This document shows positions 1 through 12,832 of a DNA stretch of 14,446 nt, piece by piece. Numbering within the stretch: position 1 is the first letter of the stretch; each line of letters opens with the position of its first letter. The notes under the pieces are model-generated. The model searched no databases. It had not been told where the DNA came from and saw only the letters and a program-made list of their open reading frames with translations. A program made the translations under genes and the position numbers. This DNA comes from a virus (taxonomy: Duplodnaviria; Heunggongvirae; Uroviricota; Caudoviricetes), in IMG/VR virus record IMGVR_UViG_3300013942_000056, positions 1 to 14,446 of that record; one strand, written 5' to 3'.

Positions 1-706
1 CATCTCGGGAGATATCCCACTGTTGCAGGCCGGATTCAAACCATTCCTGCATTTTGTTCGCCACCTGCTCCTGCAACGCGCCGCTGCGGGTCCATGCCTG
101 CAACATTTCGCTGAAAGAAGGCAGATCAAAGAAGAAGTGTTCGGAATCACGCATTACCGGGGTAGCGCCAGAAACCACCGATTTCGGCTCGATCAATTCA
201 GTCGGGCTATATGTTGCGCCGCAGACTTCACAGTTATCGCCGTATTGATCTGGCGCTTTACATTTCGGGCAGGTGCCTTTTACAAAACGATCCGGCAGGA
301 ACATGCCTTTTTCCGGGTCGTACAACTGAGAGATAGTGCGGTTTTTAATAAAACCGTTCTCTTTCAGGCGAGTATAGATAAGCTCAGACAACTGACGGTT
401 CTCTTCGCTGTGCGTCGAGTGATAGTTGTCATAGCTGATGTTAAAGCCTGCGAAATCAGTCTGGTGTTCCTGACTCATTTCGCCAATCATCTGCTCCGGT
501 GTGATACCAAGCTGCTGTGCTTTCAGCATGATCGGCGTACCGTGGGCATCGTCGGCACAGATGAAATTAACCTCGTGGCCGCGCATTCGCTGGTAACGAA
601 CCCAGACATCAGCCTGGATGTGCTCCAGCATATGGCCGAGGTGGATTGAGCCGTTAGCGTACGGCAGCGCGCACGTCACCAGAATTTTCTTCGCGACTTG
701 GGTCAT
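1..706 (-). CDS. metG: Methionyl-tRNA synthetase, N-terminal part (3' end lies beyond window start)
   Basis: Reverse complement from 706 reads ATG ACC CAA GTC GCG AAG AAA ATT CTG GTG ACG TGC GCG CTG CCG TAC GCT AAC GGC TCA ATC CAC CTC GGC CAT = [25 protein letters not shown], the known MetRS N-terminus with the class I HIGH-type motif. The plus-strand ORFs 23..649 and 54..248 are antisense shadows of this gene. Confidence 0.95.
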
Positions 707-863
707 AGTAGGCATTACTTCTTTGTAGTGAAAAGGGGCTTGATAGTAACAAAATGGCCTTATGTCTGCCATGTGATAACAGCATTTCTCATAAATGATT
801 AAATGTCGTAGCTGGAGTACACTACAAGGCGACAATTGCGCAAATTAAAATAAAGGAGACGGG

Positions 864-1964
864 ATGAGCGAGTCCAAATCGCCGGATGCCCTGAGAGCAA
901 TGGTAGCCGGTACGCTGGCTAATTTTCAGCACCCAACCCTGAAACACAACCTGACTACGCTTAAAGCGTTACACCATGTTGCGTTGATGGATGACACACT
1001 GCATGTCGAACTAATCATGCCTTTCGTGTGGAATAAGCCTTTTGAAGACCTGAAAGAGCAATGTAGTGGTGATCTGCTCCGTATCACTGGAGCAAAGGCT
1101 ATTGACTGGAAGCTGTCGTACAACATTGCCACGCTTAAGCGCGTCAAAAACCAACCAGGCATTAATGGCGTTAAGAACATTATCGCCGTCAGCTCAGGCA
1201 AGGGCGGCGTGGGTAAATCCTCCACGGCGGTAAACCTGGCACTGGCGTTGGCTGCTGAAGGTGCGAAAGTTGGTATTTTGGATGCCGATATCTATGGTCC
1301 ATCAATTCCAAACATGCTGGGCGCGGAAAACCAACGTCCAACCTCACCTGACGGTACTCACATGGCACCTATCATGTCTCATGGCCTGGCAACCAACTCT
1401 ATTGGTTATCTGGTCACCGACGACAATGCAATGGTGTGGCGTGGACCGATGGCCAGCAAGGCGCTGATGCAGATGTTGCAGGAAACTCTATGGCCTGATC
1501 TGGACTATCTCGTTCTCGATATGCCGCCGGGCACTGGTGATATTCAGTTGACGCTGGCGCAGAACATTCCTGTAACTGGTGCGGTTGTGGTAACTACGCC
1601 GCAAGACATCGCGCTGATCGATGCGAAGAAAGGCATTGTGATGTTCGAAAAAGTCGAAGTGCCGGTACTGGGTATCGTCGAAAACATGAGTGTGCATATT
1701 TGCAGTAACTGCGGTCATCACGAGCCAATTTTTGGCACCGGTGGCGCACAGAAACTGGCCGAGAAATACAACACGCAGTTGTTAGGCCAAATGCCACTTC
1801 ATATCTCTCTTCGTGAAGATCTGGATAACGGAACACCAACCGTTATTAGTCGTCCAGATAGCGAATTTACGGCTATTTATCGTGACCTCGCAGATCGCGT
1901 TGCTGCCCAAATGTATTGGCAAGGTGAAGTAATACCTGGCGAAATCGCATTCCGCGCAGTGTGA
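864..1964 (+). CDS. apbC: Iron-sulfur cluster carrier ATPase Mrp/ApbC
   Basis: 366-aa ORF with AGGAG 7 nt upstream of ATG; Walker A GKGGVGKS; Mrp/NBP35-type CxxC (CSNCGHH); near-identity over long stretches to E. coli Mrp as recalled; divergent from metG as in E. coli. Confidence 0.93.
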   Translation: MSESKSPDALRAMVAGTLANFQHPTLKHNLTTLKALHHVALMDDTLHVELIMPFVWNKPFEDLKEQCSGDLLRITGAKAIDWKLSYNIATLKRVKNQPGINGVKNIIAVSSGKGGVGKSSTAVNLALALAAEGAKVGILDADIYGPSIPNMLGAENQRPTSPDGTHMAPIMSHGLATNSIGYLVTDDNAMVWRGPMASKALMQMLQETLWPDLDYLVLDMPPGTGDIQLTLAQNIPVTGAVVVTTPQDIALIDAKKGIVMFEKVEVPVLGIVENMSVHICSNCGHHEPIFGTGGAQKLAEKYNTQLLGQMPLHISLREDLDNGTPTVISRPDSEFTAIYRDLADRVAAQMYWQGEVIPGEIAFRAV

Positions 1965-1965
1965 T

Positions 1966-1989
1966 AAAAAGGCGGTGCATTGCACCGCC
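1966..1989. terminator. Bidirectional intrinsic terminator hairpin between mrp and the UmuD'-like gene
   Basis: AAAAA then GGCGGTGC (1971-1978), loop ATT, GCACCGCC (1982-1989); on the minus strand the hairpin is followed by TTTTTAT, so it is the better terminator for the minus-strand gene ending at 2002. Confidence 0.7.
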
Positions 1990-2001
1990 TAATCAGTTCT
2001 C

Positions 2002-2391
2002 CTACATCACGGGACAATCATCAAACTCGCCACTTCTTGCGTCGTTGATAATGTGAGTGATCACACCAAACACGGCATTGCTGCCCGTGCATCCATCGTC
2101 ATCCTTTGGCAATGCTTCCTTCTTACCGGTTCTTAAATCCTCCAGATGCTGACGTGGATACTTCCGGTATCTTTTTACGCGATATTCCCCATCCAGAGCG
2201 CATACAAGCAGAGAACCATCAACCGGGGTAAGTGAGGAATCGACCACCAGCAATGCACCCTGTAATATTCCCTCACGATGATGACTATCAGCTGCCCTCA
2301 TGAAGTAGGTCGCTGAAGGATGTCTAATTATCTGCTGATCAAGAGAAATACGGCTCTCAGCATAATCCGCCGCAGGAGAAGGGAAGCCCAT
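2002..2391 (-). CDS. UmuD'-like (HumD-type) S24 LexA-family peptidase lacking the N-terminal cleavable arm
   Basis: 129 aa beginning MGFPSPAADY, matching UmuD from its Cys24-Gly25 cleavage region onward (UmuD has GFPSPAADY); conserved Ser (AADSHHREG) and Lys (EYRVKRY) catalytic dyad positions; perfect SOS box directly upstream. Confidence 0.8.
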   Translation of the reverse strand: MGFPSPAADYAESRISLDQQIIRHPSATYFMRAADSHHREGILQGALLVVDSSLTPVDGSLLVCALDGEYRVKRYRKYPRQHLEDLRTGKKEALPKDDDGCTGSNAVFGVITHIINDARSGEFDDCPVM

Positions 2392-2407
2392 AATACTCGC
2401 CTCTTAA

Positions 2408-2452
2408 TACTGTATATACATACAGTATATGTTGAAGCTATATATTTTTGAA
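2408..2452 (-). promoter_or_regulatory. LexA (SOS) box overlapping a sigma70-like promoter of the UmuD'-like gene
   Basis: TACTGTATATACATACAGTA at 2408-2427 (CTGT-N8-ACAG palindrome, one centre mismatch to the consensus as recalled). Minus-strand reading gives -35 TTCAAA (plus 2447-2452), 17-nt spacer, -10 TATACT (plus 2424-2429) overlapping the box. Confidence 0.8.
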
Positions 2453-2722
2453 CTCTATCTCTTAAAAAAGATGTTAATAAGATGCTAACTATTGAAAGGC
2501 ATAAATATATACAATTCCAACAAACGTTATTTTTAACAAATTTTTTCTCTCTGTTGACTTTTGCGAAAGCCTTGTCTGGCCTAAATTGCGCGGAAGCTAC
2601 TTTTTCCTTCCTGAGTTATCCACAGAGTTATGCACTTGCATGCATAACCTATACACACTATCTTAATTCGCAAGACACTGATGTTGCGGTATTGAAGGTT
2701 CATTGGGTTAAAAATAGACATT

Positions 2723-2753
2723 AAAAAGCCCAGTTGACTAGGCTGGGCTTTTT
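2723..2753. terminator. Bidirectional intrinsic terminator-like hairpin
   Basis: AAAAAGCCCAG (2723-2733), 9-nt loop, CTGGGCTTTTT (2743-2753); perfect 11-bp complementarity with A/T runs on both sides. Confidence 0.55.
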
Positions 2754-3053
2754 AAAAGGAAACAGAGTTTGCGGCTCTGTTCCTGAGCCATAAGTATCTG
2801 GCGACTGAATTAAGATTAACCGAATGTACTGGATTCATCAAGAAACGTTGAGTGGTCATACCAGGTAATAATGACCATTTACTAAACATCGTTGTTCTCA
2901 AAGAAGATTTAAGTCCAGGTTTTTGGTGACTCTAAAACCTTACCTTAACTCGAAATCGTGCCGTAAGTATCTGGCGACTACAGATATTGCAACTGCAAAG
3001 GCAAGCCCAAAGGTATTTGCAGCTAGGCGCGATAAAACTAAGTGAGGCCTGTT

Positions 3054-3137
3054 ATGGTTAACTTACTGTTCAAAATCGTGCCGCCGATGTTCGCGATTAT
3101 CAAAGCGATCATTGAGTACGTAAACCAGCGTCCATAA
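3054..3137 (+). CDS. Putative 27-aa hydrophobic peptide MVNLLFKIVPPMFAIIKAIIEYVNQRP
   Basis: ATG preceded by GAGG at 6-nt spacing; stop TAA at 3135-3137; strong hairpin terminator 14 nt downstream; below the ORF-track size cutoff. No homolog recognised. Confidence 0.3.
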   Translation: MVNLLFKIVPPMFAIIKAIIEYVNQRP

Positions 3138-3150
3138 CGCTAGTTGCTAC

Positions 3151-3175
3151 AGGCCCCATCAAGAGCATGGGGCCT
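3151..3175 (+). terminator. Intrinsic terminator hairpin after the small ORF
   Basis: AGGCCCCAT (3151-3159), loop CAAGAGC, ATGGGGCCT (3167-3175), then CTTTAT on the plus strand. Confidence 0.6.
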
Positions 3176-3192
3176 CTTTATCGTACTATTGC

Positions 3193-3819
3193 TTATTTTT
3201 TACGGACTGAGTTGTTCACTGCTCTGGCAATCTTCTCCCGCAATTGCTGCGTTCCGTGGTACTGAACCGCAATATCTCTCAACTCGTTCACCAGTTCTCG
3301 AATCTGGTGATCTTTAAGCTCATTATTTGGGTGATTGGTAACAACTCTGGTTAATTCACCCTTGTCTTTTGCTCTTACGTATGCAGCTCTTGTGCATTCG
3401 ACCCATGTATTACCGCCTACATTAACTTCGTAGATTAGGCTGGACTTATCTGTCAATTCGGAACAAATACGGGCCGTGGTCTGGCAACTAGAGCATTCGC
3501 AGTTATCGCGGAAACCGTGATCTACCGGTCGAGAAAGAGGTTTAACTTTTTCATCCAACTTCATCACAGCATCGTGATAAGCGTTCCAGCCGTCATCTTT
3601 ACCAAGTTGATAAATCTCTGAAGGCTCCATGTAGTCTATATCGCAACCTTCTTCATCCGATCTATCTGGTCGCTTCCCTGGTAATCGCTCATAAAAACAA
3701 TTTCTGTCTCGACGTTCGGCTCTCAGTGCTAACGCAAGAAGTTGCTCAAGCGAGGTATTTGCACCAGCAATAATTTCATTGAGAATATCTTCTGTGAGAT
3801 CTTTCGCTACCGTGCTCAT
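3193..3819 (-). CDS. Hypothetical phage protein (208 aa), last gene of the coupled minus-strand operon
   Basis: ATG start at 3819 forms an ATGA overlap with the stop of the upstream gene; Cys-rich stretch (CECSSC...C); no family recognised. Confidence 0.6.
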   Translation of the reverse strand: MSTVAKDLTEDILNEIIAGANTSLEQLLALALRAERRDRNCFYERLPGKRPDRSDEEGCDIDYMEPSEIYQLGKDDGWNAYHDAVMKLDEKVKPLSRPVDHGFRDNCECSSCQTTARICSELTDKSSLIYEVNVGGNTWVECTRAAYVRAKDKGELTRVVTNHPNNELKDHQIRELVNELRDIAVQYHGTQQLREKIARAVNNSVRKK

Positions 3820-4199
3820 TTATCTCTCTCAGTATGTTGCGATGGCGTAAATTTGACGACATCAAATATTTTGGATGGCATCAACTTTATCCGCGAGCTT
3901 AGTTCGGCTCTTCTCTGTAATGCGGTTAATAATGTTTTCGTTCTGACGCCTTCGTGTATCCTCATCCCTGGCACAAGAACTACATCGCAGGGGAGATGCT
4001 CAGGTGACAAATCATTTTGGGCATCGCTAATCAGTCGTGTAATCTCTCTTTCAAGCCGACCGCCTAGCTCTGTTTTAGTGCAATGTTCTGACCAATCGCC
4101 AGCCTCAAGCAGCGCGAGAATGCTTAAAATATCGTCCAATAGATCAGTGGTATTATCGACTTCCTTCTGAAACTCACCGGCTACTGATTTATGCATCAT
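3816..4199 (-). CDS. Hypothetical phage protein (127 aa)
   Basis: ORF with 4-nt overlaps to both neighbours (translational coupling). Confidence 0.55.
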   Translation of the reverse strand: MMHKSVAGEFQKEVDNTTDLLDDILSILALLEAGDWSEHCTKTELGGRLEREITRLISDAQNDLSPEHLPCDVVLVPGMRIHEGVRTKTLLTALQRRAELSSRIKLMPSKIFDVVKFTPSQHTERDK

Positions 4200-4849
4200 T
4201 CGTCATCCTCATCCGAGTCATCCTCATCACAGGATGAGAGTAGTGGGTTAGTCATTCGCCCTACTTGAGTGGCGTAGCCACGCCGACAGAGATTGCGCAG
4301 CACACTGTATATTTCGAACATCTCGGTTCGTTCATCGCCAACATCAAGCTCAGATGCTATAGCGTGGCATTCAGTCGCGAGAGCCGATATTTTCTGAAAT
4401 AACTCTGCATTATTCACTGTTCGACTCCTGCGGCGTTCTGGTAGTGGCATCCAGTGTGTGACATTGCTAATCAGACCATATTCATTAGTTTGAGGATGGT
4501 TGCCGTTATCGTCTCCGTATTTAAGACTCTCCATAAAGCCATAATGCCTATCACCATTAACGCTCACAAAGCCGTAATAAGCAGGTATAACGCCGATCTC
4601 ACACGTAACCAGTAAAGGAAAACTAGTTCTCCAATTTAGCTCGCCAATTACAGGCATTCGCTCACTACAGCTTATCCAACCATCCTTAGATGCGGCTGTA
4701 TTGGCATAGGCCTTACGGTGCTTCTGTAGCTCTGCTGCAATCGCTCTCACGACTTCAACTGGTGCCCTTGCAGCAAACTCAATGTTGGTGATCAGCTCAT
4801 TAAGATATTTCTCGCTTGGGTAGCATTTCTTATTGTTAACGGTGGTCAT
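4196..4849 (-). CDS. Phage protein, DUF551-like (217 aa) with acidic C-terminal tail
   Basis: Contains WISCSERMP ... THWMPLPE, recalled as typical of prophage DUF551 proteins; C-terminus DEDDSDEDDE; stop/start overlap with neighbours. Confidence 0.5.
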   Translation of the reverse strand: MTTVNNKKCYPSEKYLNELITNIEFAARAPVEVVRAIAAELQKHRKAYANTAASKDGWISCSERMPVIGELNWRTSFPLLVTCEIGVIPAYYGFVSVNGDRHYGFMESLKYGDDNGNHPQTNEYGLISNVTHWMPLPERRRSRTVNNAELFQKISALATECHAIASELDVGDERTEMFEIYSVLRNLCRRGYATQVGRMTNPLLSSCDEDDSDEDDE

Positions 4850-5034
4850 TAGGCAGCTCTCTCAACAACAAGCAATTCGTCGTAGTCATAATCAGTTTCG
4901 GAACCATCCGTACCGAACAGAGTCACTTTGTCATTTTCCATCCAAAAAGATTTAACCGCACATTGTTGACCTTTAGATGTTATGAGCACATCACCAGGGA
5001 TTACGTCTTCAGCGCGAACCTCTAGTGTTCTCAT
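4849..5034 (-). CDS. Hypothetical small phage protein (61 aa)
   Basis: ATG start at 5034 in ATGA overlap with upstream stop; its own stop overlaps the next start (TAATG). Confidence 0.45.
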   Translation of the reverse strand: MRTLEVRAEDVIPGDVLITSKGQQCAVKSFWMENDKVTLFGTDGSETDYDYDELLVVERAA

Positions 5035-5561
5035 CGTGCTGCCCCCTCTTTGGTGAAAATGCCTGCTGCAATGCTGTTTATGATGCTGTCAGTGCATGGA
5101 GTAGAAAGCTGGGCATCTCCAGCAATTTTCATGACCTCAACATCCGCATATCGAATACCGAGGTGTATCAGACCGGCTATACCTGACTTAAGTCGAACAT
5201 TTTCCATAAACAGATCTTTTTCCCGCTGTTTAGCGGCTTCCAACTCCATCGACAATTTTTCCAACTGCTCTTTATGCTTCTTGTATTCCTGATACGCGTG
5301 CCAAGACTGACCTTTGCGCACACTATCAGCGATATCAGCAACCTGCTCTGGTGTTAGCGTGGTCAGTGGCTGTGATGGAAAAATCATCACTTGCCCGGCA
5401 TCCCAATCAAAACCCGCCTGAATTGACTGAACCTCAACTGATGGTGTTGAACCGATGCGACCAGGCGAATGAACAACGATCGTTACATCCATATCGCGAC
5501 GATGGCTGTGGTTGTTGGACAAAATACGATTCACCAACTCAGAAAATTTGGATAATTTCAT
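5031..5561 (-). CDS. Hypothetical phage protein (176 aa; start at MKLSKF)
   Basis: The internal ATG at 5561 gives an ATGA overlap with the stop of the upstream gene and has GGAGAGAAAGAGAGA upstream; the longer ORF-track extension to 5690 would overlap the upstream gene by 130 nt. Confidence 0.55.
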
Positions 5562-5881
5562 GCTGATCTCTCTTTCTCTCCCCGGATAATTCTGTTGCAC
5601 ACATCCACACACTCGTCGCAGATGAAAACGGCGTCCCCAGCAATTAACTTTTTGACGGCGTACTGGGATTTGTTGCAGAAGCTGCAACAAAGTGTTCGCC
5701 TGACTGATAAGGATGGAGCGCCAGATGTCAGCCGCTCCATATCGTTCTTGCGACGCAATATCACACGGCTGAACTCAACCAGTTTCTCCGGGGATATCTC
5801 CTCCTCCGTAGCGAGCGTCTCTAGTCGTTCGAGTATGTTGAAGGCTTTTTCTTGGGTAATAGCAGAGTGCGATGTGGTCAT
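5558..5881 (-). CDS. Phage protein with C-terminal ClpX-type C4 zinc-finger domain (107 aa)
   Basis: C-terminal [34 protein letters not shown] closely matches the ClpX N-terminal zinc-binding domain (E. coli ClpX has [34 protein letters not shown] as recalled). Confidence 0.7.
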
Positions 5882-6279
5882 TTTCTTTCACCTTCAATGT
5901 TCGTGGCGCTGGCAAGATTGTCCTTGCGAAGAAGAGCGGCTATGCGCTTACTTCCATCCGAGATAACGCCCTCGTAATACTCACGCTGCTCGTTGAGTTT
6001 TGATTTTGCCAACTCCAGTTGTTTTGTTAGTTCCGCAATACGGCAAACATCGTTGATACGCGTTTCCTCTAATGCGTTGATCTCATCCAGTAGTGCCAGC
6101 ACGGTTTCTGGTCCGGCCAGAAATTTGAAGGCGTTGAGGGCATCAATATCAACACCGCTATCTTTAAGTTCCTGTTCGCATATCAGATCATCATCAACTG
6201 GCAACATTAACAGGCGTTCCATTGCCGGAATTGCACGCTCTGCCGCCTCACGCAGTGCCTGATAGTCAATCTTGCTCAC
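5878..6279 (-). CDS. Ead/Ea22-like coiled-coil phage protein (133 aa), GTG start
   Basis: Start codon is GTG at 6279 with AAGGAG 7 nt upstream and a GTGA overlap with the upstream stop; [17 protein letters not shown]-terminus resembles Ea22-like proteins (from memory). Confidence 0.5.
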
Positions 6280-6776
6280 TGGATGACTCCTTTACGAAGC
6301 TGTTCAGCAATACTTACGCATATCTCTGCGCCTCTAATCAGCCCCGGAACGTTCTTGTTTGGCCCAACTTCACCATCAACAAAATCAATCATCGCGTTAC
6401 GAGCCATATCCACGCCCTGCGCACGTACTTCAGCCAGAAAAGCATCGGTGGCTGGAGTCTCCGTTAATTCGCTAACCCAATTATCTCCGTGTTCCTCGGC
6501 ACACATCGCATCGAATGCTCGCTCAGATTCTTTCAGGGCTGCATTCTCCGCCGCTAATGCGTCTCTCTGCGCTCGCAACTTCTCAATTTCGGCAGCCATG
6601 TAGTAACCAACCATAGCGAAAGTGGCGAAAGGGTAGTCAGAATCATCAGGAGATACGGAGGCCATTAGCAGACCATCGTGCATGTTCTGGCTTCCATCAG
6701 TGATGGATACCGCATAAGAATCGCTGGTTTCCCGTTTATACAATACGACGACCGGGTTCTTGATTTTCTCTCTCAT
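6276..6776 (-). CDS. Ea22-like phage protein (166 aa)
   Basis: ATG at 6776 overlaps the upstream stop (TAATG); contains ETPATDAFLAEVRAQGVDMARNAMIDF, similar to a motif recalled from Ea22-like prophage proteins. Confidence 0.5.
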   Translation of the reverse strand: MREKIKNPVVVLYKRETSDSYAVSITDGSQNMHDGLLMASVSPDDSDYPFATFAMVGYYMAAEIEKLRAQRDALAAENAALKESERAFDAMCAEEHGDNWVSELTETPATDAFLAEVRAQGVDMARNAMIDFVDGEVGPNKNVPGLIRGAEICVSIAEQLRKGVIQ

Positions 6777-7318
6777 TACGATGCCTCTAACTTATCTAAC
6801 TCTTTCAGCCCTTCACGTACCGCGTTCACAATGCGTTCCAGATACTGGTATTTCGGGTTTGGTACCGTTGGCCAGTCGGCATACCACGGATCATCACCAA
6901 AGAGATTCAGCAGTTTGTTACCGACGCCGAAACAACAGCAGCTTTCTTTTACGTCATCGGTGTTTTCCGCCTCGTCCCACATTTCACGAGCCAGTACGGC
7001 GTCGATTTCTCTCTCTCTTCGTAACTTTATGATTTCTGACTTCACGAAAAGCAGATTTGCATCGTTGTCATCGTCGACCGTGCTTCGCAGTTGAGAGTCG
7101 AAATAGCCGATTAGATACTCGTTGCTGACCCGCTTAATGAACGTCTGCACATCATCACCGCCCATAGCAAACCAAGCCGCAGTCCACGCTTTTCCGTAGC
7201 AGATGATGGTGATTCTTCCCTTACCAGGTTCGTAGTTTTCAATCATCACTCGAACCGGATCGAGGCGTTCCAGATCCGTCAGCACAAAGGAAAGAACATC
7301 TATTTTTTCGACCTTCAT
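6776..7318 (-). CDS. Hypothetical phage protein (180 aa; start at MKVEKI)
   Basis: The ORF-track start at 7330 is GTG; the ATG at 7318 forms an ATGA overlap with the stop of the HD-domain gene, so it is the preferred start. Confidence 0.55.
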   Translation of the reverse strand: MKVEKIDVLSFVLTDLERLDPVRVMIENYEPGKGRITIICYGKAWTAAWFAMGGDDVQTFIKRVSNEYLIGYFDSQLRSTVDDDNDANLLFVKSEIIKLRREREIDAVLAREMWDEAENTDDVKESCCCFGVGNKLLNLFGDDPWYADWPTVPNPKYQYLERIVNAVREGLKELDKLEAS

Positions 7319-7956
7319 GCAGCCTCCCACGCGCTCCAGATCAGCGATTTGTGTTTTTCATAACGTTTGATGTGTACCGGTTTCAGAAGCGCAATACCTT
7401 CAGTGACTTTCGCCATTGCGCTTAATAGCAACGGGTGTTCTATACCTATCCTCTCCATGTACTCGACAACATCAGCGTTGGCACCAATCTCTTTGCCGTG
7501 AAAGAGTACGTCCAGCATCAGTTCTTTCTCTGCGAGGTAGACAGCTGAAAACTCGGGATCGCGACTCACGATAGAAGAGGTATTGTCGAGCAGGTCAGCC
7601 AGCTTGATCATGCGCGTCTGCATGTCGAGATTTTGCTCCAGCTCCCGGACATTGATGATGAAACGCTGTATTCGATTGCCGTCTTCTGGCCTTGCAATGT
7701 TGGTCAGAGCCTGAACCATTTCAGCTACGCGCTCACCGAAGTGATCACGAACCATCTCTATGGTTACATGGGTGTCTTCGACCACATCATGCAGAAGCGC
7801 CGCGATTTGCATCTCCACGGTTCCGTCATGCAATGCAACAATCTCTCGGACAGCAACCGGGTGGTTGATGTAGTCTTCGCCGGTATATTTTCTTTTCTGA
7901 CCAACGCCACCATGAGCGCCAGCGGCGAACATATGAGCTTCGGAAATACTAGACAT
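7315..7956 (-). CDS. HD-domain (p)ppGpp hydrolase-like protein, SpoT/RelA hydrolase-type small alarmone hydrolase (213 aa)
   Basis: HPVAVREIV ... AALLHDVVEDT matches the His...HD...ED signature of the RelA/SpoT hydrolase domain; first gene after a terminator; ACGGAG RBS. Confidence 0.7.
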   Translation of the reverse strand: MSSISEAHMFAAGAHGGVGQKRKYTGEDYINHPVAVREIVALHDGTVEMQIAALLHDVVEDTHVTIEMVRDHFGERVAEMVQALTNIARPEDGNRIQRFIINVRELEQNLDMQTRMIKLADLLDNTSSIVSRDPEFSAVYLAEKELMLDVLFHGKEIGANADVVEYMERIGIEHPLLLSAMAKVTEGIALLKPVHIKRYEKHKSLIWSAWEAA

Positions 7957-8024
7957 TCTTAACTCCGTTGTTTTCTAGTTGTGGTTATTTTCACAAATAA
8001 GAAAAGGTAGAAAACAATTTATTT

Positions 8025-8045
8025 AAGGCCACAACTTATGGCCTT
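8025..8045 (-). terminator. Intrinsic terminator separating the MTase unit from the HD-domain operon
   Basis: AAGGCCA (8025-8031), loop CAACTTA, TGGCCTT (8039-8045); minus-strand downstream flank AAATAAATTGTTTTCT; sits 30 nt after the stop of gene 8076..8456. Confidence 0.6.
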
Positions 8046-8075
8046 TATTTATTCATGCCGAAGGATTTGTAGCGT

Positions 8076-8456
8076 CTAATTGCCGGATAAAATGGGGTGA
8101 GGTGCTTGCCAGTAGGCTCCACCGGTCCATGTGAACCCCATGCGAATAAGAGTGTTTATTGCGGCTTTGGTAGACTCCGATTCGACACTGGCTTTTCGAA
8201 ACTCTTGAACCTCTTTCGCCAACTTGTATGTAATTGTGCAGGGGACGATTGCAGCCCAGCCTTTCTCATGACTGTTAATGACCATCTGGATGTGACCATC
8301 CAGAATAGGTTGATTAGGCATGTTATTGAAAATGTCTGCCTGTTTTTGAATGTGAAGAAAAAGCCTTGCCAGCTCCATTTGCTCACTACGAGACAAGGGA
8401 TTATCAAGAGGGCTTTTTGCAAAAGCGGCTATACGCTGTGCGTCAATGCCAAACAT
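8076..8456 (-). CDS. Hypothetical protein (126 aa)
   Basis: ATG at 8456 overlaps the stop of the upstream gene (TGATG), indicating translational coupling; no family recognised. Confidence 0.55.
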   Translation of the reverse strand: MFGIDAQRIAAFAKSPLDNPLSRSEQMELARLFLHIQKQADIFNNMPNQPILDGHIQMVINSHEKGWAAIVPCTITYKLAKEVQEFRKASVESESTKAAINTLIRMGFTWTGGAYWQAPHPILSGN

Positions 8457-9160
8457 CAGCGCACCTCACCATCTTTATGGCTGGAGTTAACTTCCGCCAT
8501 TAAATGTCTGACGTAATCGACAAGAGAGCCACCTGGTGGAATCTGGCATTCCTCAACTAACTGGAAGTAGATATCCGCTGCATTACGTGTATTGCTACCC
8601 GCACATATTCTTTCTTCCCGAAGTGCATGAAGCTCGTTGATCAAACGGTCACACTCTCCGTTACGCTGATCCACAACGGCCTCAAGCTCTGCGACGCGTT
8701 CACCTGGCGTCTTACCTTCTTTGCGTTGGATGGTAACGACGAAATCGCCAATTGCAGGGACGTTGTAATCCAGCTCAAGGTAGTTTTTGGCACCGCTGCG
8801 GACGAACTCACCCGCGAACATGGTGGCGAACATCGCAGAGGCCACTTCGCCGTTGAAAAGTGACTCCAGATCTAACGGAGTCCCGGCATCAAGAGCCTCT
8901 TTTGCTGTATCCATTGCATCCATGAACCGATCAAACTCATTGGCGCGCTTTTCCAGGTTTTTCCATTGCTCGCTCCAACGTTTGGCAACGAAGTCTATGA
9001 ATGTTTTCGCGGATTCATCAAAATCCCCCTCAAACTTAACGATGCCTTTATCAATAATGATCTGGCCTACCGCATCCTCTGCATAACCTTTCAATGTAAA
9101 CTTGAAAGGAAAATCAGAATGGCCTGTGACGTTAAAATGCTCTAACTGGAGGTTGTTCAT
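8456..9160 (-). CDS. Hypothetical protein (234 aa)
   Basis: ATG at 9160 preceded by AGAGAAAAACAC, the same leader type found at two other genes in this block; no family recognised. Confidence 0.55.
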   Translation of the reverse strand: MNNLQLEHFNVTGHSDFPFKFTLKGYAEDAVGQIIIDKGIVKFEGDFDESAKTFIDFVAKRWSEQWKNLEKRANEFDRFMDAMDTAKEALDAGTPLDLESLFNGEVASAMFATMFAGEFVRSGAKNYLELDYNVPAIGDFVVTIQRKEGKTPGERVAELEAVVDQRNGECDRLINELHALREERICAGSNTRNAADIYFQLVEECQIPPGGSLVDYVRHLMAEVNSSHKDGEVR

Positions 9161-9203
9161 GTGTTTTTCTCTTATCGTTTAGTAACTACATTCTTACACA
9201 AAT

Positions 9204-9221
9204 TAGGTAAGTATTTACCTA
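9204..9221 (-). terminator. Weak AT-rich hairpin immediately after the MTase stop (possible attenuator)
   Basis: TAGGTAA (9204-9210), loop GTAT, TTACCTA (9215-9221), abutting the stop codon at 9222-9224. Confidence 0.3.
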
Positions 9222-10907
9222 TCATTTAACGCGTTTGAAAACGTATACGCTGACTGTGATCCCTGTGTCTTCAAACTCGTTGGTAAACGACTTCCCTCTG
9301 GCATAAACGTAATTATCCATCGTCATCCAGTCCAGTATTGGCGCAGTGCCCGGCAATACTGCTACAAGACGCCCGCCGACTTTCAGATGCCCCAGCGCAG
9401 CCAGCGTGTGCTCTCTATGACGACCAAGCGAGTACGGCGGGTTCATAACGATTTTGTCGAACTGATAACCTACGTTGTCCTCAGACCACTTTATGAAGTC
9501 GCAGCAAATCGTGTTCGTATACCCTTTTCCGCGCAGGATATCAGCGAAGAGAGGTGCGATTTCTATGCAGGTAACATCTTCCAGATCGGCGTTGATATAG
9601 GCCAGAAGATCCCCACGTCCGGCTTGAGGCTCCAGCAGCTTCTCACCAGACTTCAATTCAGTGGCTCTGGCAACGTACTCAGCAATCAAGCGTGGGGTAG
9701 GGTAGAACTGGTGTGATTTTGTATCCGGTATTAATCCGGTAGCCACAATCGTATTTAGCGTATGGCCGATCTCATACGGGAACTGCCAGTGCTTTTTCTC
9801 CTGCACGCCGCCAATGAAGCTCAGTGTGCGCTCAAGCTCTTCCACCTGCGACTTCTGGAGAGCTGAATCAGAGAAGTACCATACGCCTTTGTCTTTGCTT
9901 AATCGCCCGTCACGAAGCGCAGTGCGAACCGGCACGGAGATCGTCTTCTGGATTAACCCGAACTGCTTTGGTGCCCGTGTTTTTGGCGCGGTGCGACATG
10001 GCGCGGGGATTGCAGCAGGCATACTGTAAGCCAGCACCTCATTCAACTTCCAGGCCACGTCAGGATGTATTTCAAAGTGAACGTTGCCGTTCTTGAACAT
10101 CTTCACGCGCATTAGATTTCCATCGACGTTCATCCAGTCACCGGTCTGGCAGTCGTTTGCCCGATACGCAGCTGATAGCACCTCAGCAGTGCGGTTGATG
10201 GTAATAAATTCTTTGTGCGCGAAGAAATGAAGCAAGACACGCAGATCGTCGATATAGTCCTCTTTGCGATAGTTCACACTAACGCTGTCCCGCCAGAAAT
10301 CAGAAATGCAGTCAGCGATTATCAGACGTTCGCTGAAACCGTTTGTCTTATTTGTCTTGTGCGCAGGACTCAGCGCCTTAAACAAGCCATACACGCGCTC
10401 AGAGAGATATTTGTGCCTGTCATTCAGCAAATTAAGCATCGTGGGTATGACCGTTTCTGCTTTGAACTCCGGTACACCAACGAACTCTTTAACCTTCATC
10501 TGGTAGCCGGTTCTGTCAGTTTTGATGACTTCCTGTTTGCCCTCTATAAACTGCTCGCGCCACTCATCTCGACGGGAAGCTGGCATGATCAGCAAAACGT
10601 TAGTCATGTCCGTGACCTTCCTCCAGTACTCGGCCCAAATATTCTGTTTCACCCATTCCAGATCGACTTTATCCAACCAACCTCGATTTAAACGCGAGCG
10701 ATCTTCATCTGGTCGATGGTTTAGTCTCAGCAGGCGATTAATCATGTTGTGGCGTTCGTCGCCATAAACGAAGTCGTGTACCTGATACATGAAGGCGATC
10801 TCTTTCTCGCACTCGGCCACAATTTCGTGGATGACGTTCATTTCCTGCCGATAGTCGATAGCAGTGTTTGAGTTGGCATCGTCGATGATGGAAAGGGCTG
10901 TATTCAT
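9222..10907 (-). CDS. 561-aa protein: unknown ~400-aa N-terminal domain fused to a C-terminal gamma-type amino-methyltransferase domain (NPPY; probable N6-adenine DNA MTase)
   Basis: C-terminal region has the SAM-binding motif LEPQAGRGDLL followed about 50 aa later by KIVMNPPY, the order found in gamma-class N6-adenine MTases and HsdM; FYPTP precedes it. NPPY is also used by HemK/PrmC protein-glutamine MTases, so the target is inferred. Confidence 0.7.
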   Translation of the reverse strand: MNTALSIIDDANSNTAIDYRQEMNVIHEIVAECEKEIAFMYQVHDFVYGDERHNMINRLLRLNHRPDEDRSRLNRGWLDKVDLEWVKQNIWAEYWRKVTDMTNVLLIMPASRRDEWREQFIEGKQEVIKTDRTGYQMKVKEFVGVPEFKAETVIPTMLNLLNDRHKYLSERVYGLFKALSPAHKTNKTNGFSERLIIADCISDFWRDSVSVNYRKEDYIDDLRVLLHFFAHKEFITINRTAEVLSAAYRANDCQTGDWMNVDGNLMRVKMFKNGNVHFEIHPDVAWKLNEVLAYSMPAAIPAPCRTAPKTRAPKQFGLIQKTISVPVRTALRDGRLSKDKGVWYFSDSALQKSQVEELERTLSFIGGVQEKKHWQFPYEIGHTLNTIVATGLIPDTKSHQFYPTPRLIAEYVARATELKSGEKLLEPQAGRGDLLAYINADLEDVTCIEIAPLFADILRGKGYTNTICCDFIKWSEDNVGYQFDKIVMNPPYSLGRHREHTLAALGHLKVGGRLVAVLPGTAPILDWMTMDNYVYARGKSFTNEFEDTGITVSVYVFKRVK

Positions 10908-10947
10908 AATTGCACCATTAAGAAGTGATTTGTTTAATGGTGCAATT
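10908..10947 (-). promoter_or_regulatory. Perfect 14-bp inverted repeat over the MTase translation initiation region
   Basis: AATTGCACCATTAA (10908-10921), 12-nt spacer, TTAATGGTGCAATT (10934-10947); the left arm directly abuts the ATG at 10907, so the RBS lies inside the stem or operator. Confidence 0.55.
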
Positions 10948-11010
10948 ATTTCAAAAATGAAAAGGTACTAAATAGAAATAAACAGGCAATCCTTCAAATA
11001 AAGGCATTGG

Positions 11011-11625
11011 CTAATCATACTTGGAGGTATTTATCACCAGAATTTTGTTTGTATAAATCTTCTTAATATCCCATGTGACATTACCGGAATACCATTGACC
11101 GTTATATACTTGGTTTCCAGTTGCACCTGTCATTGTTACATAGACAGGTCTGTCGTAATCGGTTCGTCTATAGTTATATACCCCAACCATAGCAGGCATT
11201 ACCGCACATGGATACCCCATATCTATTGTAAATTGAGGGTCAGAAATAGTGATAAGTTTCGCATCAAGGGGCATCATCTCACCGTGATACACCATTGCGC
11301 CTGCGCTGTTATACATGGCAATGCCATAGCCAGAATGTGATAACACCATATCAGAAAAAGCATAAACTGTTATTGTTCCGGGGCTACCATTTACCTGATG
11401 CAATCTGAGAGCATTGTATCCGTTACTATGCTCATGAATAAACATCATGTTCGCCTTATTACTGCTTTTTATGAAGAAAAAGCATGATTTGTTTGATGGG
11501 ATTGATGTTTGAAAAACAGAACCTTTAGATGTAGACATTGTCCCTTTATTAATCAGATTTTGCGGAGTAAATTCTGGACTCATCCACAAACTTCCATCTG
11601 ATTGAGTAATTGACATCCCGAACAT
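11011..11625 (-). CDS. Hypothetical Tyr/Asn/Gly/Thr-rich protein (204 aa), AT-rich moron
   Basis: The ORF-track start at 11682 is TTG; the ATG at 11625 has GGGGA 6 nt upstream and lies 2 nt after the stop of the upstream 93-aa ORF; the region is visibly AT-rich relative to the flanks. Confidence 0.45.
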   Translation of the reverse strand: MFGMSITQSDGSLWMSPEFTPQNLINKGTMSTSKGSVFQTSIPSNKSCFFFIKSSNKANMMFIHEHSNGYNALRLHQVNGSPGTITVYAFSDMVLSHSGYGIAMYNSAGAMVYHGEMMPLDAKLITISDPQFTIDMGYPCAVMPAMVGVYNYRRTDYDRPVYVTMTGATGNQVYNGQWYSGNVTWDIKKIYTNKILVINTSKYD

Positions 11626-11627
11626 AA

Positions 11628-11909
11628 TTATCCCCAGTATGTGTATATGTAAGAACCAAGCCCCGTATATAAATTTGACCAACTAACCGTATTTCCATTA
11701 ATAGTAACTGTTGGAACAGGTAAATTAATGTAGTTGTCGTTGTTAAGAGGCATCAATGACCACACGGCATGTAGCGATTTACCCGGTGGCGGATTGGAGT
11801 ACGTCTTAGAGCCTGATGACGCAGTAAATCGATCAAGAAAAAAAATAGGAGTAAGGAAGCCAGTAACGTTAATTCCTTTATTGTTGTAAATCCCTGTACC
11901 GTATGCCAT
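11628..11909 (-). CDS. Hypothetical Tyr/Asn/Gly-rich protein (93 aa), AT-rich moron; possibly the N-terminal part of a frameshifted gene
   Basis: ATG at 11909 with AAGGA upstream; composition similar to the following ORF, which is in a different frame. Confidence 0.4.
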   Translation of the reverse strand: MAYGTGIYNNKGINVTGFLTPIFFLDRFTASSGSKTYSNPPPGKSLHAVWSLMPLNNDNYINLPVPTVTINGNTVSWSNLYTGLGSYIYTYWG

Positions 11910-11936
11910 TTTTCATCCTTGTTTTTTATCAACACA

Positions 11937-11960
11937 ATATGGCCGATCATGCGGCCATAT
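11937..11960 (-). terminator. Hairpin (8-bp stem) after the 189-aa gene; possible attenuator or operator
   Basis: ATATGGCC (11937-11944), loop GATCATGC, GGCCATAT (11953-11960), 4 nt after the stop codon at 11965-11967; the downstream flank is not T-rich. Confidence 0.35.
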
Positions 11961-11964
11961 CAGA

Positions 11965-12534
11965 TCAATTAGAGCTTTGAAAGGCTTTGTGTGGCTGTGT
12001 TGCGAGGTTATGTCGATGGCTTAACTCACGCATCATGTCTTCAAGCCGACTCTTTGTGTCGTCGAGTTGGTCGGCCATTGCTCCCAAAAGCTGACGAACG
12101 GCCATCGGATCATCGCTGTTTAGTGATGGCATTTTATAACCCGCCTGAGAAGACATAAGATTGAACGCAGACATCAACATCGTTAGAGAGGATTTAAGCC
12201 CAGCAATTTCACGATCTTTGCTGGCAATAATCGCCTCACTCTTGTTAGTGTCATCAGTTCGTTGAGTCTCGCTCACCATATCCAAAGTCGCCTGCAACTT
12301 ATCAGCGCGCTCTTTTTCAGCAAGATAATGAACACCGAAATGATGTGCTAAAGCTACAACCTGAGTTGGCTCTTCAAAGGTGGACTCAAAATTAAGTGCT
12401 GTAACCACTCTCTCAAATATGGAAACGTCTTCTATTCCTCGAAGAATGGCTAACATTTTGACCAGTTCATTAGCATCCATTTCTTCGAATAAGGCGTTTT
12501 GTTCATCAGCTATCGCTTTGCATTTCTTGCACAT
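11965..12534 (-). CDS. Hypothetical protein (189 aa)
   Basis: ATG at 12534 preceded by AGGAAAAACAC and the AGAAAACAACTTGTTT leader motif; no family recognised. Confidence 0.6.
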   Translation of the reverse strand: MCKKCKAIADEQNALFEEMDANELVKMLAILRGIEDVSIFERVVTALNFESTFEEPTQVVALAHHFGVHYLAEKERADKLQATLDMVSETQRTDDTNKSEAIIASKDREIAGLKSSLTMLMSAFNLMSSQAGYKMPSLNSDDPMAVRQLLGAMADQLDDTKSRLEDMMRELSHRHNLATQPHKAFQSSN

Positions 12535-12552
12535 GTGTTTTTCCTAATGCTT

Positions 12553-12568
12553 AAACAAGTTGTTTTCT
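12553..12568 (-). promoter_or_regulatory. Leader motif AGAAAACAACTTGTTT (palindromic core AAACAA-C-TTGTTT), copy 1
   Basis: Lies 18 nt upstream of the ATG at 12534; near-identical copy at 13281-13297 and partial copies at 7967-7976 and 13808-13822. Confidence 0.45.
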
Positions 12569-12649
12569 TATTGGCTTTATTGTGATGTGGCATAAAAGGG
12601 GAGCAAGCTAAACGTAAAGGTGCAAACTCTCTATTTCGGTCAACGAAAC

Positions 12650-12671
12650 ACAAGGGCCATTTGGCCCTTGT
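12650..12671 (-). terminator. Intrinsic terminator after the TerB / small membrane protein pair
   Basis: ACAAGGGCC (12650-12658), loop ATTT, GGCCCTTGT (12663-12671); 2 nt after the stop at 12674-12676; minus-strand downstream flank GTTTCGTTG. Confidence 0.55.
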
Positions 12672-12673
12672 CA

Positions 12674-12832
12674 TTAACACGTTGCTTTACGGACTAGCGG
12701 ATAAGCGAAGTAGATCGCCAGACCAATGAGGACGCCATCAGAAATGACAGACATCATCTTTCCCGTAAAATCCACCAACACCGCCATCACCAGAAGAGCA
12801 ATGACGGTCACAAGCCGGAATCTCTCAAGCAT
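12674..12832 (-). CDS. 52-aa two-helix membrane peptide translationally coupled to the TerB-like gene
   Basis: Minus-strand translation from the ATG at 12832 gives MLERFRLVTVIALLVMAVLVDFTGKMMSVISDGVLIGLAIYFAYPLVRKATC; the ATG overlaps the TerB-like stop (TAATG); two hydrophobic segments; terminator immediately downstream. Absent from the ORF track (below size cutoff). Confidence 0.5.
   Translation of the reverse strand: MLERFRLVTVIALLVMAVLVDFTGKMMSVISDGVLIGLAIYFAYPLVRKATC

What the first reader, a model, noticed from the sequence alone, without database searches (positions are those of the whole stretch)
2002..2452. Pre-processed UmuD' homolog under a near-consensus SOS box, with no adjacent umuC
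The protein starts at the position equivalent to the UmuD RecA-mediated cleavage site, so it is made in the active UmuD' form (as described for phage P1 HumD), and it is controlled by a 20-bp LexA box overlapping its -10 element. No umuC-like polymerase gene is adjacent, implying it acts through the host UmuC or DinB or on another partner. This is an SOS-wired mutagenesis or damage-tolerance modulator at the very edge of the element.
Basis: partly seen in the sequence, partly recalled or inferred. Interest (0 to 1): 0.4.

Follow-up and report, generated by a model that had tools for sequence, protein, structure and literature searches.

The report
Phage-plasmid copy of P1 HumD
This is an ordinary, already catalogued copy of the phage P1 humD gene, a ready-made "UmuD-prime" helper for the host's error-prone DNA polymerase that is switched on by DNA damage, and it sits inside an E. 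coli SSU5-like phage-plasmid rather than at the edge of an element.

Summary
A 129-aa ORF (2002-2391, minus strand) begins Met-Gly, and that Gly aligns with Gly25 of E. coli UmuD, the first residue of cleaved UmuD'. An in-frame TAA lies 5 codons upstream of the ATG. A 20-bp LexA box (2408-2427) matches the consensus at 19 of 20 positions and overlaps a -10 hexamer.

The protein is 92% identical to phage P1 HumD. It scores 219.8 bits on NCBIfam's HumD equivalog model (cut-off 120). The P1 RefSeq record already annotates the same LexA site in front of humD.

No Y-family polymerase gene occurs in the window, in the 109.6-kb plasmid that matches bases 1-14083 at 100%, or within about 10 kb of humD in 108 related loci.

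The "edge of the element" claim is wrong. The neighbouring apbC and metG genes are cargo inside an SSU5-like phage-plasmid.

About 14% of complete E. coli genomes carry this cassette.

Most likely mechanism: LexA-repressed expression of a UmuD' mimic that partners the host's UmuC, as my recollection of the P1 HumD paper (not held here) has it.

Minor extras: the UmuD nucleophile position varies between Ser and Thr across the family, and a family-specific C-terminal tail is conserved.

Verdict: already known, low interest.

The parts
2002..2391 (-). humD coding sequence. 129 aa, stop TAG at 2004-2002. The product starts MGFPSPAADY, equivalent to UmuD' from Gly25.
2400..2405 (-). Ribosome-binding site AAGAGG, 8 nt upstream of the ATG.
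   Evidence: read
2404..2406 (-). In-frame TAA stop with 4 sense codons before the ATG. It excludes an N-terminal arm.
   Evidence: the same layout is seen in relatives
2408..2427 (.). LexA (SOS) box TACTGTATGTATATACAGTA. It matches the consensus at 19 of 20 positions, and 16 nt separate its end from the ATG.
   Evidence: A perfect-core box lies 16-19 nt from the ATG in 80 of 80 close relatives. P1 RefSeq carries a protein_bind LexA feature at the equivalent place.
2424..2429 (-). -10 hexamer TATACT, overlapping the LexA box by 4 nt.
2447..2452 (-). -35 hexamer TTCAAA, with a 17-nt spacer.
   Evidence: consensus match only
1970..1990 (-). Intrinsic terminator of humD: a 9-bp G+C-rich stem followed by TTTTT.
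2721..2755 (.). Hairpin terminator upstream of the humD promoter (13-nt arms flanked by A/T runs). It would insulate humD from upstream minus-strand transcription.

Best explanation
The locus is the humD cassette known from phage P1, carried here by an E. coli SSU5-like phage-plasmid.

**Proposed mechanism.**
1. In undamaged cells a LexA dimer sits on the box at 2408-2427. The box covers the -10 hexamer and the transcription start, so the gene is kept off. This step is inferred from the sequence and its conservation.
2. DNA damage activates RecA, LexA cleaves itself, and humD is transcribed. This step is inferred.
3. Translation from the ATG at 2391 gives a 129-aa protein. After the usual removal of Met before Gly, it begins GFPSPAADY, exactly like RecA-cleaved UmuD'. 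The start position is shown by alignment. HumD therefore needs no RecA-mediated processing.
4. As I recall was shown experimentally for the 92%-identical P1 protein, HumD dimerises and binds the host's UmuC and RecA filaments. It then supplies the UmuD' function of DNA polymerase V, allowing lesion bypass and SOS mutagenesis. This step is taken from my memory of that paper, which was not held, and is inferred here by orthology.

The element has no UmuC of its own, so the catalytic subunit must come from the host.
For: **Orthology.**
- The protein is 92% identical to P1 HumD over all 129 residues with no gaps.
- NCBIfam NF051876 'HumD family' (equivalog) scores 219.8 bits against a cut-off of 120.
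- Pfam Peptidase_S24 scores 37.9 bits against 23.3.
- PHROG 811 'UmuD-like' matches profile positions 21-140 only, so the arm is missing.

**Start position.** Gly2 aligns with UmuD Gly25, the first residue of 1UMU. An in-frame stop precedes the ATG.

**LexA box.** It matches the consensus at 19 of 20 positions, with 0 of 200 shuffles matching, and it overlaps the -10 hexamer. A perfect CTGT-N8-ACAG core lies 16-19 nt before the ATG in 80 of 80 viral contigs. In 27 of 28 species-level genome loci an SOS box precedes humD or its operon. P1 RefSeq annotates 'LexA binding site in the regulatory region of lxr and humD' and 'functionally complements E. coli UmuD''.

**Orphan status.** No UmuC homologue occurs in the window, in the whole plasmid pRHB36-C16_2 or in Cyrano. 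None occurs within about 10 kb of humD in 108 HumD loci.

**Gene is functional.** dN/dS against P1 humD is 0.058, with dS 0.66. The motif GFPSPA.DY is nearly invariant in 103 family representatives although it is never cleaved.

**Element responds to damage.** Cyrano, whose HumD is 100% identical, is induced 39-fold by ciprofloxacin (PMC9928086).

**Literature.** McLenigan et al. [quoted passage not shown] The title is cited in PMC4713147. The paper itself was not held, so its content is from my own knowledge.
Against: - No experiment exists on this allele or on any SSU5-like element. LexA binding, induction and the UmuC partnership are all inferred.
- From memory, P1 HumD complemented well only from a high-copy plasmid and is poorly expressed natively, so its physiological role is uncertain.
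- The GDSM motif around the UmuD nucleophile is degenerate here (AADSHH, with the Gly58 equivalent deleted).
- A conserved C-terminal tail, NDARxxEFDDCPV(M/I), has no counterpart in UmuD. HumD may therefore have interactions that UmuD' lacks.
- The AlphaFold model was too poor to add structural support (mean pLDDT 50.7).
Confidence: 0.8

Rival explanations
1. HumD acts mainly on a partner other than UmuC. Candidates are the phage-plasmid's own Pol III-type replisome (the element encodes DnaE and an epsilon-like exonuclease) or the beta clamp and RecA filaments. On this reading it is an SOS-timed replication or recombination modulator rather than a mutagenesis factor.
For: - The element encodes its own dnaE and a 3'-5' exonuclease.
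- In P1, humD lies next to hot, a Pol III theta homologue.
- E. coli UmuD and UmuD' are known to contact Pol III alpha, epsilon and beta (cited in PMC4713147, refs 81-83).
- The family has a conserved C-terminal tail absent from UmuD.
- HumD is never linked to umuC in 108 loci.
- In prophage relatives it pairs with DinI, a RecA-filament modulator.
Against: - HumD homologues also occur in N15, phiKO2, lambdoid and P2-like prophages, for which no own Pol III subunit is known to me (not checked here).
- From memory, P1 HumD binds UmuC and complements UmuD'.
- No direct evidence exists for any alternative partner.
Confidence: 0.1
2. HumD retains S24 peptidase activity. Having no arm of its own, it cleaves other proteins in trans, for example host UmuD within a heterodimer or a LexA-like repressor.
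For: - The window protein keeps Ser36 and Lys73, which align with the UmuD dyad Ser60 and Lys97.
- Lys is conserved in 102 of 103 family representatives.
- From memory, intermolecular cleavage is known for UmuD.
Against: - Across 103 family representatives the nucleophile position is Ser in 59, Thr in 42 and Ala in 2.
- The Gly58 equivalent is deleted, the Asp59 equivalent is freely variable, and Met61 is replaced by His.
- The related orphan protein on IncX3 plasmids has Tyr and Met at the two dyad positions.
- This pattern fits relaxed selection on catalysis.
Confidence: 0.05
3. The gene is a decaying, non-functional remnant of a umuDC operon, 5'-truncated and stripped of umuC, carried passively by the element.
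For: It lacks both the N-terminal arm and the umuC partner that define functional umuDC operons.
Against: - dN/dS against P1 is 0.058, with dS 0.66.
- The start site, stop-before-start layout, RBS and LexA box are conserved in 80 of 80 close and 28 distant loci.
- The cassette is present in 765 of 5,426 complete E. coli genomes.
- From memory, the P1 orthologue is active.
Confidence: 0.02

Closest known systems
Phage P1 HumD (P1_gp103; McLenigan et al. 1999; NCBIfam NF051876 'HumD family translesion DNA polymerase')
   Same: - 92% identity over 129 of 129 residues, with the same MGFPSP start.
- A LexA box 16-19 nt before the ATG.
- No umuC partner.
- Carried by a phage-plasmid.
   Different: - The host element is SSU5-like (siphovirus type), not P1.
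- The downstream neighbour is apbC instead of phd-doc.
- hot and lxr are missing upstream.
- The box is closer to consensus here (1 mismatch against 3 in P1).
- The nucleotide sequence is only 87% identical, with dS 0.66, so this is an old lineage split rather than a recent transfer.
N15 gp26, phiKO2 gp23 and lambdoid or P2-like prophage 'UmuD-like' proteins
   Same: Same HumD family at 60-71% identity, with full-length alignment from residue 1. The P1 RefSeq note gives 69% identity between P1 HumD and N15 gp26.
   Different: - They sit on different replicons.
- In many chromosomal prophages humD follows an 80-aa gene of unknown function (phrog_3893) and faces a divergent dinI, and the SOS boxes lie in front of that operon.
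E. coli UmuD / UmuD' (PDB 1UMU, 1AY9, 1I4V, 8GMT)
   Same: - S24 fold family with 42% identity to UmuD residues 25-139.
- Identical GFPSPAADY N-terminus after cleavage.
- Ser and Lys present at the dyad positions.
- Control by an SOS box.
   Different: - No residues 1-24, so no RecA-mediated activation step and no N-terminal arm. From memory, the arm carries the ClpXP and beta-clamp motifs.
- The GDSM motif is degenerate.
- There is an extra 10-residue C-terminal tail.
- The gene is not in an operon with umuC.
- It scores below the NF007621 cut-off (87 bits against 110).
Plasmid UmuD-type proteins (IncI1 and related umuD plus Y-family polymerase operons; MucA, ImpA, RumA type)
   Same: An SOS-regulated accessory subunit of a Pol V-type polymerase on a mobile element, 38.7% identical.
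   Different: Those proteins have the N-terminal arm and Ala/Cys-Gly cleavage site, an intact G(D/E)SM motif, and a Y-family polymerase gene immediately downstream.
IncX3 plasmid orphan S24 protein (WP_004199403, 118 aa)
   Same: It also starts MGFPSP, also has no umuC next to it, and is 48% identical.
   Different: It has lost both dyad residues (Tyr and Met at the Ser60 and Lys97 positions), lacks the C-terminal tail, and is preceded by the 79-aa phrog_3893-type gene.

Membership tests
HumD family (P1 HumD; NCBIfam NF051876) | Sequence scores above the curated equivalog cut-off over the full length. | tested here: met
   219.8 bits against a cut-off of 120, covering residues 1-129 of 129. 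92% identity to P1 HumD.
HumD family (P1 HumD; NCBIfam NF051876) | The protein begins at the position of the UmuD Cys24/Gly25 cleavage site, with no N-terminal arm. | tested here: met
   Gly2 aligns with UmuD Gly25. An in-frame TAA lies 5 codons upstream of the ATG. 98 of 101 family members start MGFPSP.
HumD family (P1 HumD; NCBIfam NF051876) | A LexA operator in the promoter. | tested here: met
   The sequence criterion is met: a 19-of-20 box overlaps the -10 hexamer, is conserved in 80 of 80 relatives, and is annotated in P1. Actual LexA binding cannot be tested with these tools.
HumD family (P1 HumD; NCBIfam NF051876) | No cognate umuC in the operon or in the element. | tested here: met
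   tblastn with a UmuC-type polymerase gave a best E ~ 5 in the whole plasmid and in Cyrano, and no hit in the window. 0 of 108 related loci have one within about 10 kb.
HumD family (P1 HumD; NCBIfam NF051876) | Complements UmuD' in vivo, dimerises, and binds UmuC and RecA filaments. | not testable with these tools
   As I recall, this is known for P1 HumD (McLenigan 1999; paper not held). It is inferred here by 92% identity.
Self-cleaving UmuD-type Pol V subunit (UmuD, MucA, RumA; NF007621) | An N-terminal arm with a Cys/Ala-Gly cleavage site. | tested here: not met
   The arm is absent.
Self-cleaving UmuD-type Pol V subunit (UmuD, MucA, RumA; NF007621) | A Ser-Lys catalytic dyad in a G-D/E-S-M context. 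| tested here: inconclusive
   Ser36 and Lys73 are present, but the context is AADSHH with the Gly deleted. Across the family the nucleophile position is Ser 59, Thr 42, Ala 2.
Self-cleaving UmuD-type Pol V subunit (UmuD, MucA, RumA; NF007621) | The family model cut-off is met and the gene is in an operon with a Y-family polymerase. | tested here: not met
   87 bits against a cut-off of 110. No umuC is present.
Peptidase S24 domain (Pfam PF00717) | The domain match is above the gathering score. | tested here: met
   37.9 bits against 23.3. PDB UmuD' hits have E = 6.7e-23.
LexA / phage CI-type repressor | An N-terminal DNA-binding domain plus a cleavable linker. | tested here: not met
   TIGR00498 scores 27.2 bits against a cut-off of 110.95, and only the C-terminal domain aligns. 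The protein has no room for a DNA-binding domain.

The most novel reading that the evidence does not exclude
In SSU5-like phage-plasmids HumD might not be primarily a UmuC cofactor. It could instead be an SOS-timed regulator of the element's own Pol III-type replisome (its DnaE and epsilon-like exonuclease), or of RecA filaments. On this reading the family-specific, nearly invariant C-terminal tail (NDARxxEFDDCPV-M/I) would be a new interaction surface. The S24 catalytic site would be decaying, since the nucleophile position is Ser or Thr across the family.
Probability: 0.1. Interest if true: 0.45.

Novelty: already known. Interest (0 to 1): 0.12.

Why it matters
It matters little as a discovery. 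HumD was characterised in P1 in 1999, has its own NCBIfam equivalog model, and its LexA site is annotated in the P1 reference genome.

The practical value is mainly in annotation:
- The gene in SSU5-like phage-plasmids is variously labelled 'LexA-like peptidase S24', 'DNA repair protein' or 'LexA family transcriptional regulator'. It should be called HumD.
- About one in seven complete E. coli genomes carries such a cassette, mostly on phage-plasmids. A ready-activated Pol V cofactor under SOS control is therefore a common accessory trait. It could influence damage tolerance and mutagenesis under genotoxic antibiotics such as quinolones.

The family-wide Ser/Thr variation at the former nucleophile and the conserved C-terminal tail are small, testable structure-function leads.

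Tried and rejected
1. **Structure prediction.** AlphaFold2 on a 45-sequence HumD alignment gave mean pLDDT 50.7 and pTM 0.42. That is too poor to use, so no fold search was run.
2. **Key papers not held.** Neither McLenigan 1999 (PMC94175) nor the P1 genome paper, under the PMC id I recalled for it (PMC523184), was held. Their content is cited from memory, from reference lists and from the P1 RefSeq notes.
3. **Rfam.** There were no matches at gathering thresholds in the window. Only sub-threshold hits appeared near the 2720-2809 hairpin. I do not interpret these as RNA genes.
4. **Divergent ORF 2482-2724 (+), 80 aa.** I considered it as a dinI- or lxr-like partner. It has no Pfam match, a low-complexity-looking translation, and is unannotated in Cyrano and pRHB36. 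I rejected it as a gene.
5. **Longer database homologues (148-223 aa) as evidence of a real N-terminal arm.** Rejected. The 223-aa and 167-aa forms (P0046, P0048) carry the sequence of the separate upstream 80-aa gene at their N-terminus. The 19-aa extension of the 148-aa form (P0024) matches my back-translation of the LexA operator sequence seen in the related locus L011.
6. **First collinear alignment with P1.** It suggested that homology is confined to the box plus the ORF. A later BLAST showed a further P1/P7-like patch at 2454-2640. The cassette-only statement therefore holds only for the immediately flanking sequence.
7. **Heterology index.** A formal Lewis-type index for the box was not computed because I could not retrieve the matrix.

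Full report
**What is in the sequence**

On the minus strand, an ATG at 2391 opens a 129-codon ORF that ends with TAG at 2004-2002. Upstream elements, read on the minus strand, are as follows:
- The RBS AAGAGG (2405-2400) lies 8 nt before the ATG.
- The codon TAA (2406-2404) is in frame, so only four sense codons precede the ATG and none of them is a start codon.
- The 20-mer TACTGTATGTATATACAGTA occupies 2427-2408. It differs from the palindromic LexA consensus TACTGTATATATATACAGTA at one central position. No site with 3 or fewer mismatches arose in 200 dinucleotide-preserving shuffles of the window. It is the only CTGT-N8-ACAG in 14.4 kb, where 0.21 are expected.
- A sigma-70-like promoter was found by the consensus scan: -35 TTCAAA at 2452-2447, a 17-nt spacer, and -10 TATACT at 2429-2424. 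Its -10 overlaps the box by 4 nt.
- A G+C-rich hairpin followed by a T-run (1990-1970) terminates the unit.
- A second hairpin (2721-2755) lies upstream of the promoter.

**What the protein is**

- Pfam finds a Peptidase_S24 domain (37.9 bits against a gathering score of 23.3).
- Against the PDB the best hits are E. coli UmuD' and UmuD (1UMU at E = 6.7e-23, plus 1I4V, 8GMT and 1AY9). Residue Gly2 aligns with residue 1 of the UmuD' crystal chain, which is Gly25 of full-length UmuD.
- BLASTP gives 42% identity over UmuD residues 25-139.
- The protein is 92% identical, without gaps, to P1 HumD and 100% identical to the product of CYRAN_98 of phage-plasmid Cyrano.
- It scores 219.8 bits on NCBIfam NF051876 'HumD family translesion DNA polymerase' (equivalog, cut-off 120). 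It fails the model for the self-cleaving Pol V subunit (87 bits against 110) and the LexA model (27 bits against 111).
- PHROG 811 ('UmuD-like') is matched from profile position 21 onward, so the arm is missing.

By established methionine-aminopeptidase specificity, Met is removed before Gly. The mature protein should therefore begin GFPSPAADY, the same N-terminus as RecA-processed UmuD'. This last step is an inference.

**Where it sits**

Bases 1-14083 of the window are 100% identical to E. coli plasmid pRHB36-C16_2 (CP057127.1; 109,591 bp, circular, non-mobilizable). They are about 98% identical to phage-plasmids CMS-2020a and Cyrano (pLF82).

These are SSU5-like phage-plasmids. They carry terminase, capsid and tail genes as well as dnaE, primase, helicase, nrdAB, parA/parB and repA. 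PMC9928086 describes Cyrano as SSU5-like, present at about 5.5 copies per cell, and induced 39-fold by ciprofloxacin.

The genes to the left of humD are convergent apbC (864-1964; ApbC equivalog, 759 bits) and metG. In every relative, however, they are followed by more phage-plasmid genes. The 'edge' statement is not supported.

**No polymerase partner**

I used a UmuC-type Y-family polymerase taken from an IncI1 umuD-polymerase operon as a tblastn query. It found nothing in the window, and nothing better than E ~ 5 in the complete pRHB36-C16_2 plasmid or in Cyrano. The umuD query from the same operon found humD at E ~ 2e-22. HumD is therefore an orphan at the level of the whole element, not just of the neighbourhood.

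**Related loci**

| Set | Loci | Start | In-frame stop upstream | SOS box | UmuC within ~10 kb |
|---|---|---|---|---|---|
| IMG/VR viral contigs, 91-100% identical HumD | 80 | MGFPSP in 78 | 2-8 codons upstream in 78 | perfect CTGT-N8-ACAG core 16-19 nt before the ATG in 80 | 0 |
| Species-representative genome contigs, 50-72% identity (Citrobacter, Klebsiella, Kluyvera, Enterobacter, Atlantibacter, Dryocola and others) | 28 | MGFPSP in 26 | variable | SOS box in front of humD or its operon in 27 | 0 |

Among the viral contigs, 22 have apbC downstream (SSU5-like context) and 54 have phd downstream (P1-like context).

Among the genome contigs there are three architectures:
- An SOS box 15-19 nt before the ATG (11 loci).
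- An SOS box about 43 nt upstream, with a divergent dinI (6 loci).
- An 80-aa gene of unknown function (phrog_3893) immediately upstream in the same operon, with the SOS box(es) in front of it (11 loci).

Other counts:
There is then a gap down to 48% or below for other S24 proteins.
- HumD-type genes are annotated in P1, P7, D6, RCS47, SJ46, N15 (gp26), phiKO2, HK140, HK639 and others.
- 765 of 5,426 complete E. coli genomes contain the cassette at roughly 84% nucleotide identity or more. 691 of the 804 matched places are on plasmids of about 90-112 kb.

The P1 RefSeq record carries a protein_bind feature 'LexA binding site in the regulatory region of lxr and humD', ending 19 nt before humD. 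Its note reads 'functionally complements E. coli UmuD''.

Some database homologues are longer, at 148-223 aa.
- The 223-aa and 167-aa forms (P0046, P0048) carry at their N-terminus the sequence of the separate upstream 80-aa gene (95% identity to that gene product).
- The 19-residue extension of the 148-aa form (P0024; MDIQYLYCVFIRYSREGIN) matches my back-translation of the two LexA boxes seen in the related Citrobacter locus L011, so the gene call probably starts from an ATG inside the operator.

None of these resembles the UmuD arm, and all keep the internal MGFPSP. The refutation condition is not met.

**Selection and family-specific features**

Against P1 humD, dN is 0.038 and dS is 0.66, giving dN/dS of 0.058. 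This indicates strong purifying selection and an old split rather than a recent transfer.

In 103 family representatives (67-100% identical to the window protein):
- The N-terminal motif GFPSPA.DY is almost invariant although it is never cleaved.
- The UmuD Lys97 equivalent is Lys in 102.
- The Ser60 equivalent is Ser in 59, Thr in 42 and Ala in 2.
- The Gly58 equivalent is deleted, the Asp59 equivalent is freely variable, and Met61 is replaced by His.

A more distant orphan on IncX3 plasmids also starts MGFPSP but has Tyr and Met at the two dyad positions. This pattern fits relaxed selection on self-cleavage chemistry in proteins that no longer have anything to cleave. The window protein itself still has Ser36 and Lys73.

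The family also has a conserved C-terminal tail, NDARxxEFDDCPV(M/I), with no counterpart in UmuD. Its function is unknown.

**Mechanism**

The best-supported model is the P1 HumD model:
1. LexA represses the gene by occluding the -10 hexamer and transcription start. This is inferred from the sequence and its conservation.
2. SOS induction relieves repression. This is inferred.
3. A UmuD'-form protein is made directly, bypassing RecA-mediated processing. The start position is shown by alignment.
4. The protein dimerises and recruits host UmuC and RecA filaments to give Pol V-type lesion bypass. As I recall, this was shown for P1 HumD by McLenigan et al. 1999. That paper was not held, and I cite its title through PMC4713147. 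The step is inferred here by 92% identity.

Rivals:
- Action on another partner, such as the element's own DnaE and epsilon, the beta clamp or RecA filaments (about 0.10).
- Residual trans-peptidase activity (about 0.05).
- A dead remnant (about 0.02, contradicted by dN/dS and conservation).

**Comparison with known systems and verdict**

Every defining feature of the HumD family that can be tested in silico is met. The defining features of self-cleaving UmuD-type proteins (arm, cleavage site, umuC operon) are not met. The locus is a member of an already described and curated family, in an already sequenced and annotated phage-plasmid lineage.

Differences from P1 are contextual:
- The backbone is SSU5-like.
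- apbC replaces phd-doc downstream.
- hot and lxr are absent, while a P1/P7-like patch (2454-2640, with a DnaA box) is retained upstream.
- The LexA box is closer to consensus.

Novelty: already known. Interest: low.

**What led nowhere**

- The AlphaFold model was unusable (mean pLDDT 50.7).
- Rfam gave nothing above threshold.
- The two key subscription papers were not held.
- The divergent 80-aa ORF at 2482-2724 has no support as a gene.

Noticed in passing
window 14084-14446: The last 363 bases do not belong to the phage-plasmid. Every relative's match stops at 14083 and no E. coli complete genome matches this stretch. G+C jumps to about 63%. The stretch encodes a truncated methionyl-tRNA formyltransferase N-domain (Pfam Formyl_trans_N, E = 1.7e-26). 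Its closest DNA match is about 71% identical, in Oscillospiraceae (Pusillibacter, Subdoligranulum). This looks like a chimeric assembly junction, or less likely a novel insertion.
   Followed up: partly
window 1-1964: Host-like housekeeping genes are carried as cargo inside the phage-plasmid. metG runs off the left end on the minus strand, and a full-length apbC/mrp lies at 864-1964 on the plus strand (ApbC equivalog, 759 bits). From memory, this is the same divergent arrangement as on the E. coli chromosome. The Cyrano record mislabels apbC as 'MinD'.
   Followed up: partly
window 2454-2640: A patch upstream of the humD promoter is 87% identical to the P7/P1-variant upf91.x region and 75% identical to the P1 upfN/upfO/LPhot region. 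It includes a perfect DnaA box, TGTGGATAA (about 2613-2621), beside an 8-bp inverted repeat GTTATGCA/TGCATAAC. P1 has hot and lxr between this patch and humD, and the window does not.
   Followed up: partly
window 2453-3192: About 740 nt with no annotated gene in any relative. The stretch contains a hairpin with 13-nt arms (2721-2755), a 20-nt direct repeat GCC(A/G)TAAGTATCTGGCGACT at 2787-2806 and 2960-2979, a promoter-like site at 3124-3096 on the minus strand, and sub-threshold Rfam hits (AgrB- and RNAI-like) at 2720-2809 on the minus strand. It could encode an unrecognised small RNA.
   Followed up: no
L008:19501-19520 (pRHB36-C16_2); Cyrano (L003) 41044-41063: The only other strong SOS box in the whole element is CACTGTATAAGTAAACAGTA. 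It lies 26 nt upstream of the site-specific integrase gene (annotation). Together with the ciprofloxacin inducibility of Cyrano (PMC9928086), this suggests direct LexA input elsewhere in the element.
   Followed up: partly
L011:5756-5998 (Citrobacter prophage) and L007:2259-2498 (IncX3 plasmid): In many chromosomal prophages and on IncX3 plasmids, humD is the second gene of an operon. The first gene encodes a conserved protein of about 80 aa with unknown function (phrog_3893; no Pfam hit on record, no NCBIfam match). A divergent dinI often shares the SOS boxes. Some database entries fuse the two ORFs.
   Followed up: partly
L007:2501-2857 (IncX3 pNDM-type plasmid): A 118-aa orphan S24 protein also starts MGFPSP. 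It has Tyr and Met at the positions of the UmuD Ser60/Lys97 dyad and is followed directly by IS26. It is a second, more degenerate lineage of pre-processed UmuD'-like proteins.
   Followed up: partly
L127:10001-10345 (Chitinophagaceae MAG): A distant homologue (41% identity) also starts MGFPSPAA, with an in-frame stop 4 codons upstream of the ATG. Unlike HumD, it has a UmuC homologue immediately downstream (E = 1.5e-98). Arm-less UmuD' forms are therefore not restricted to orphan phage genes.
   Followed up: no
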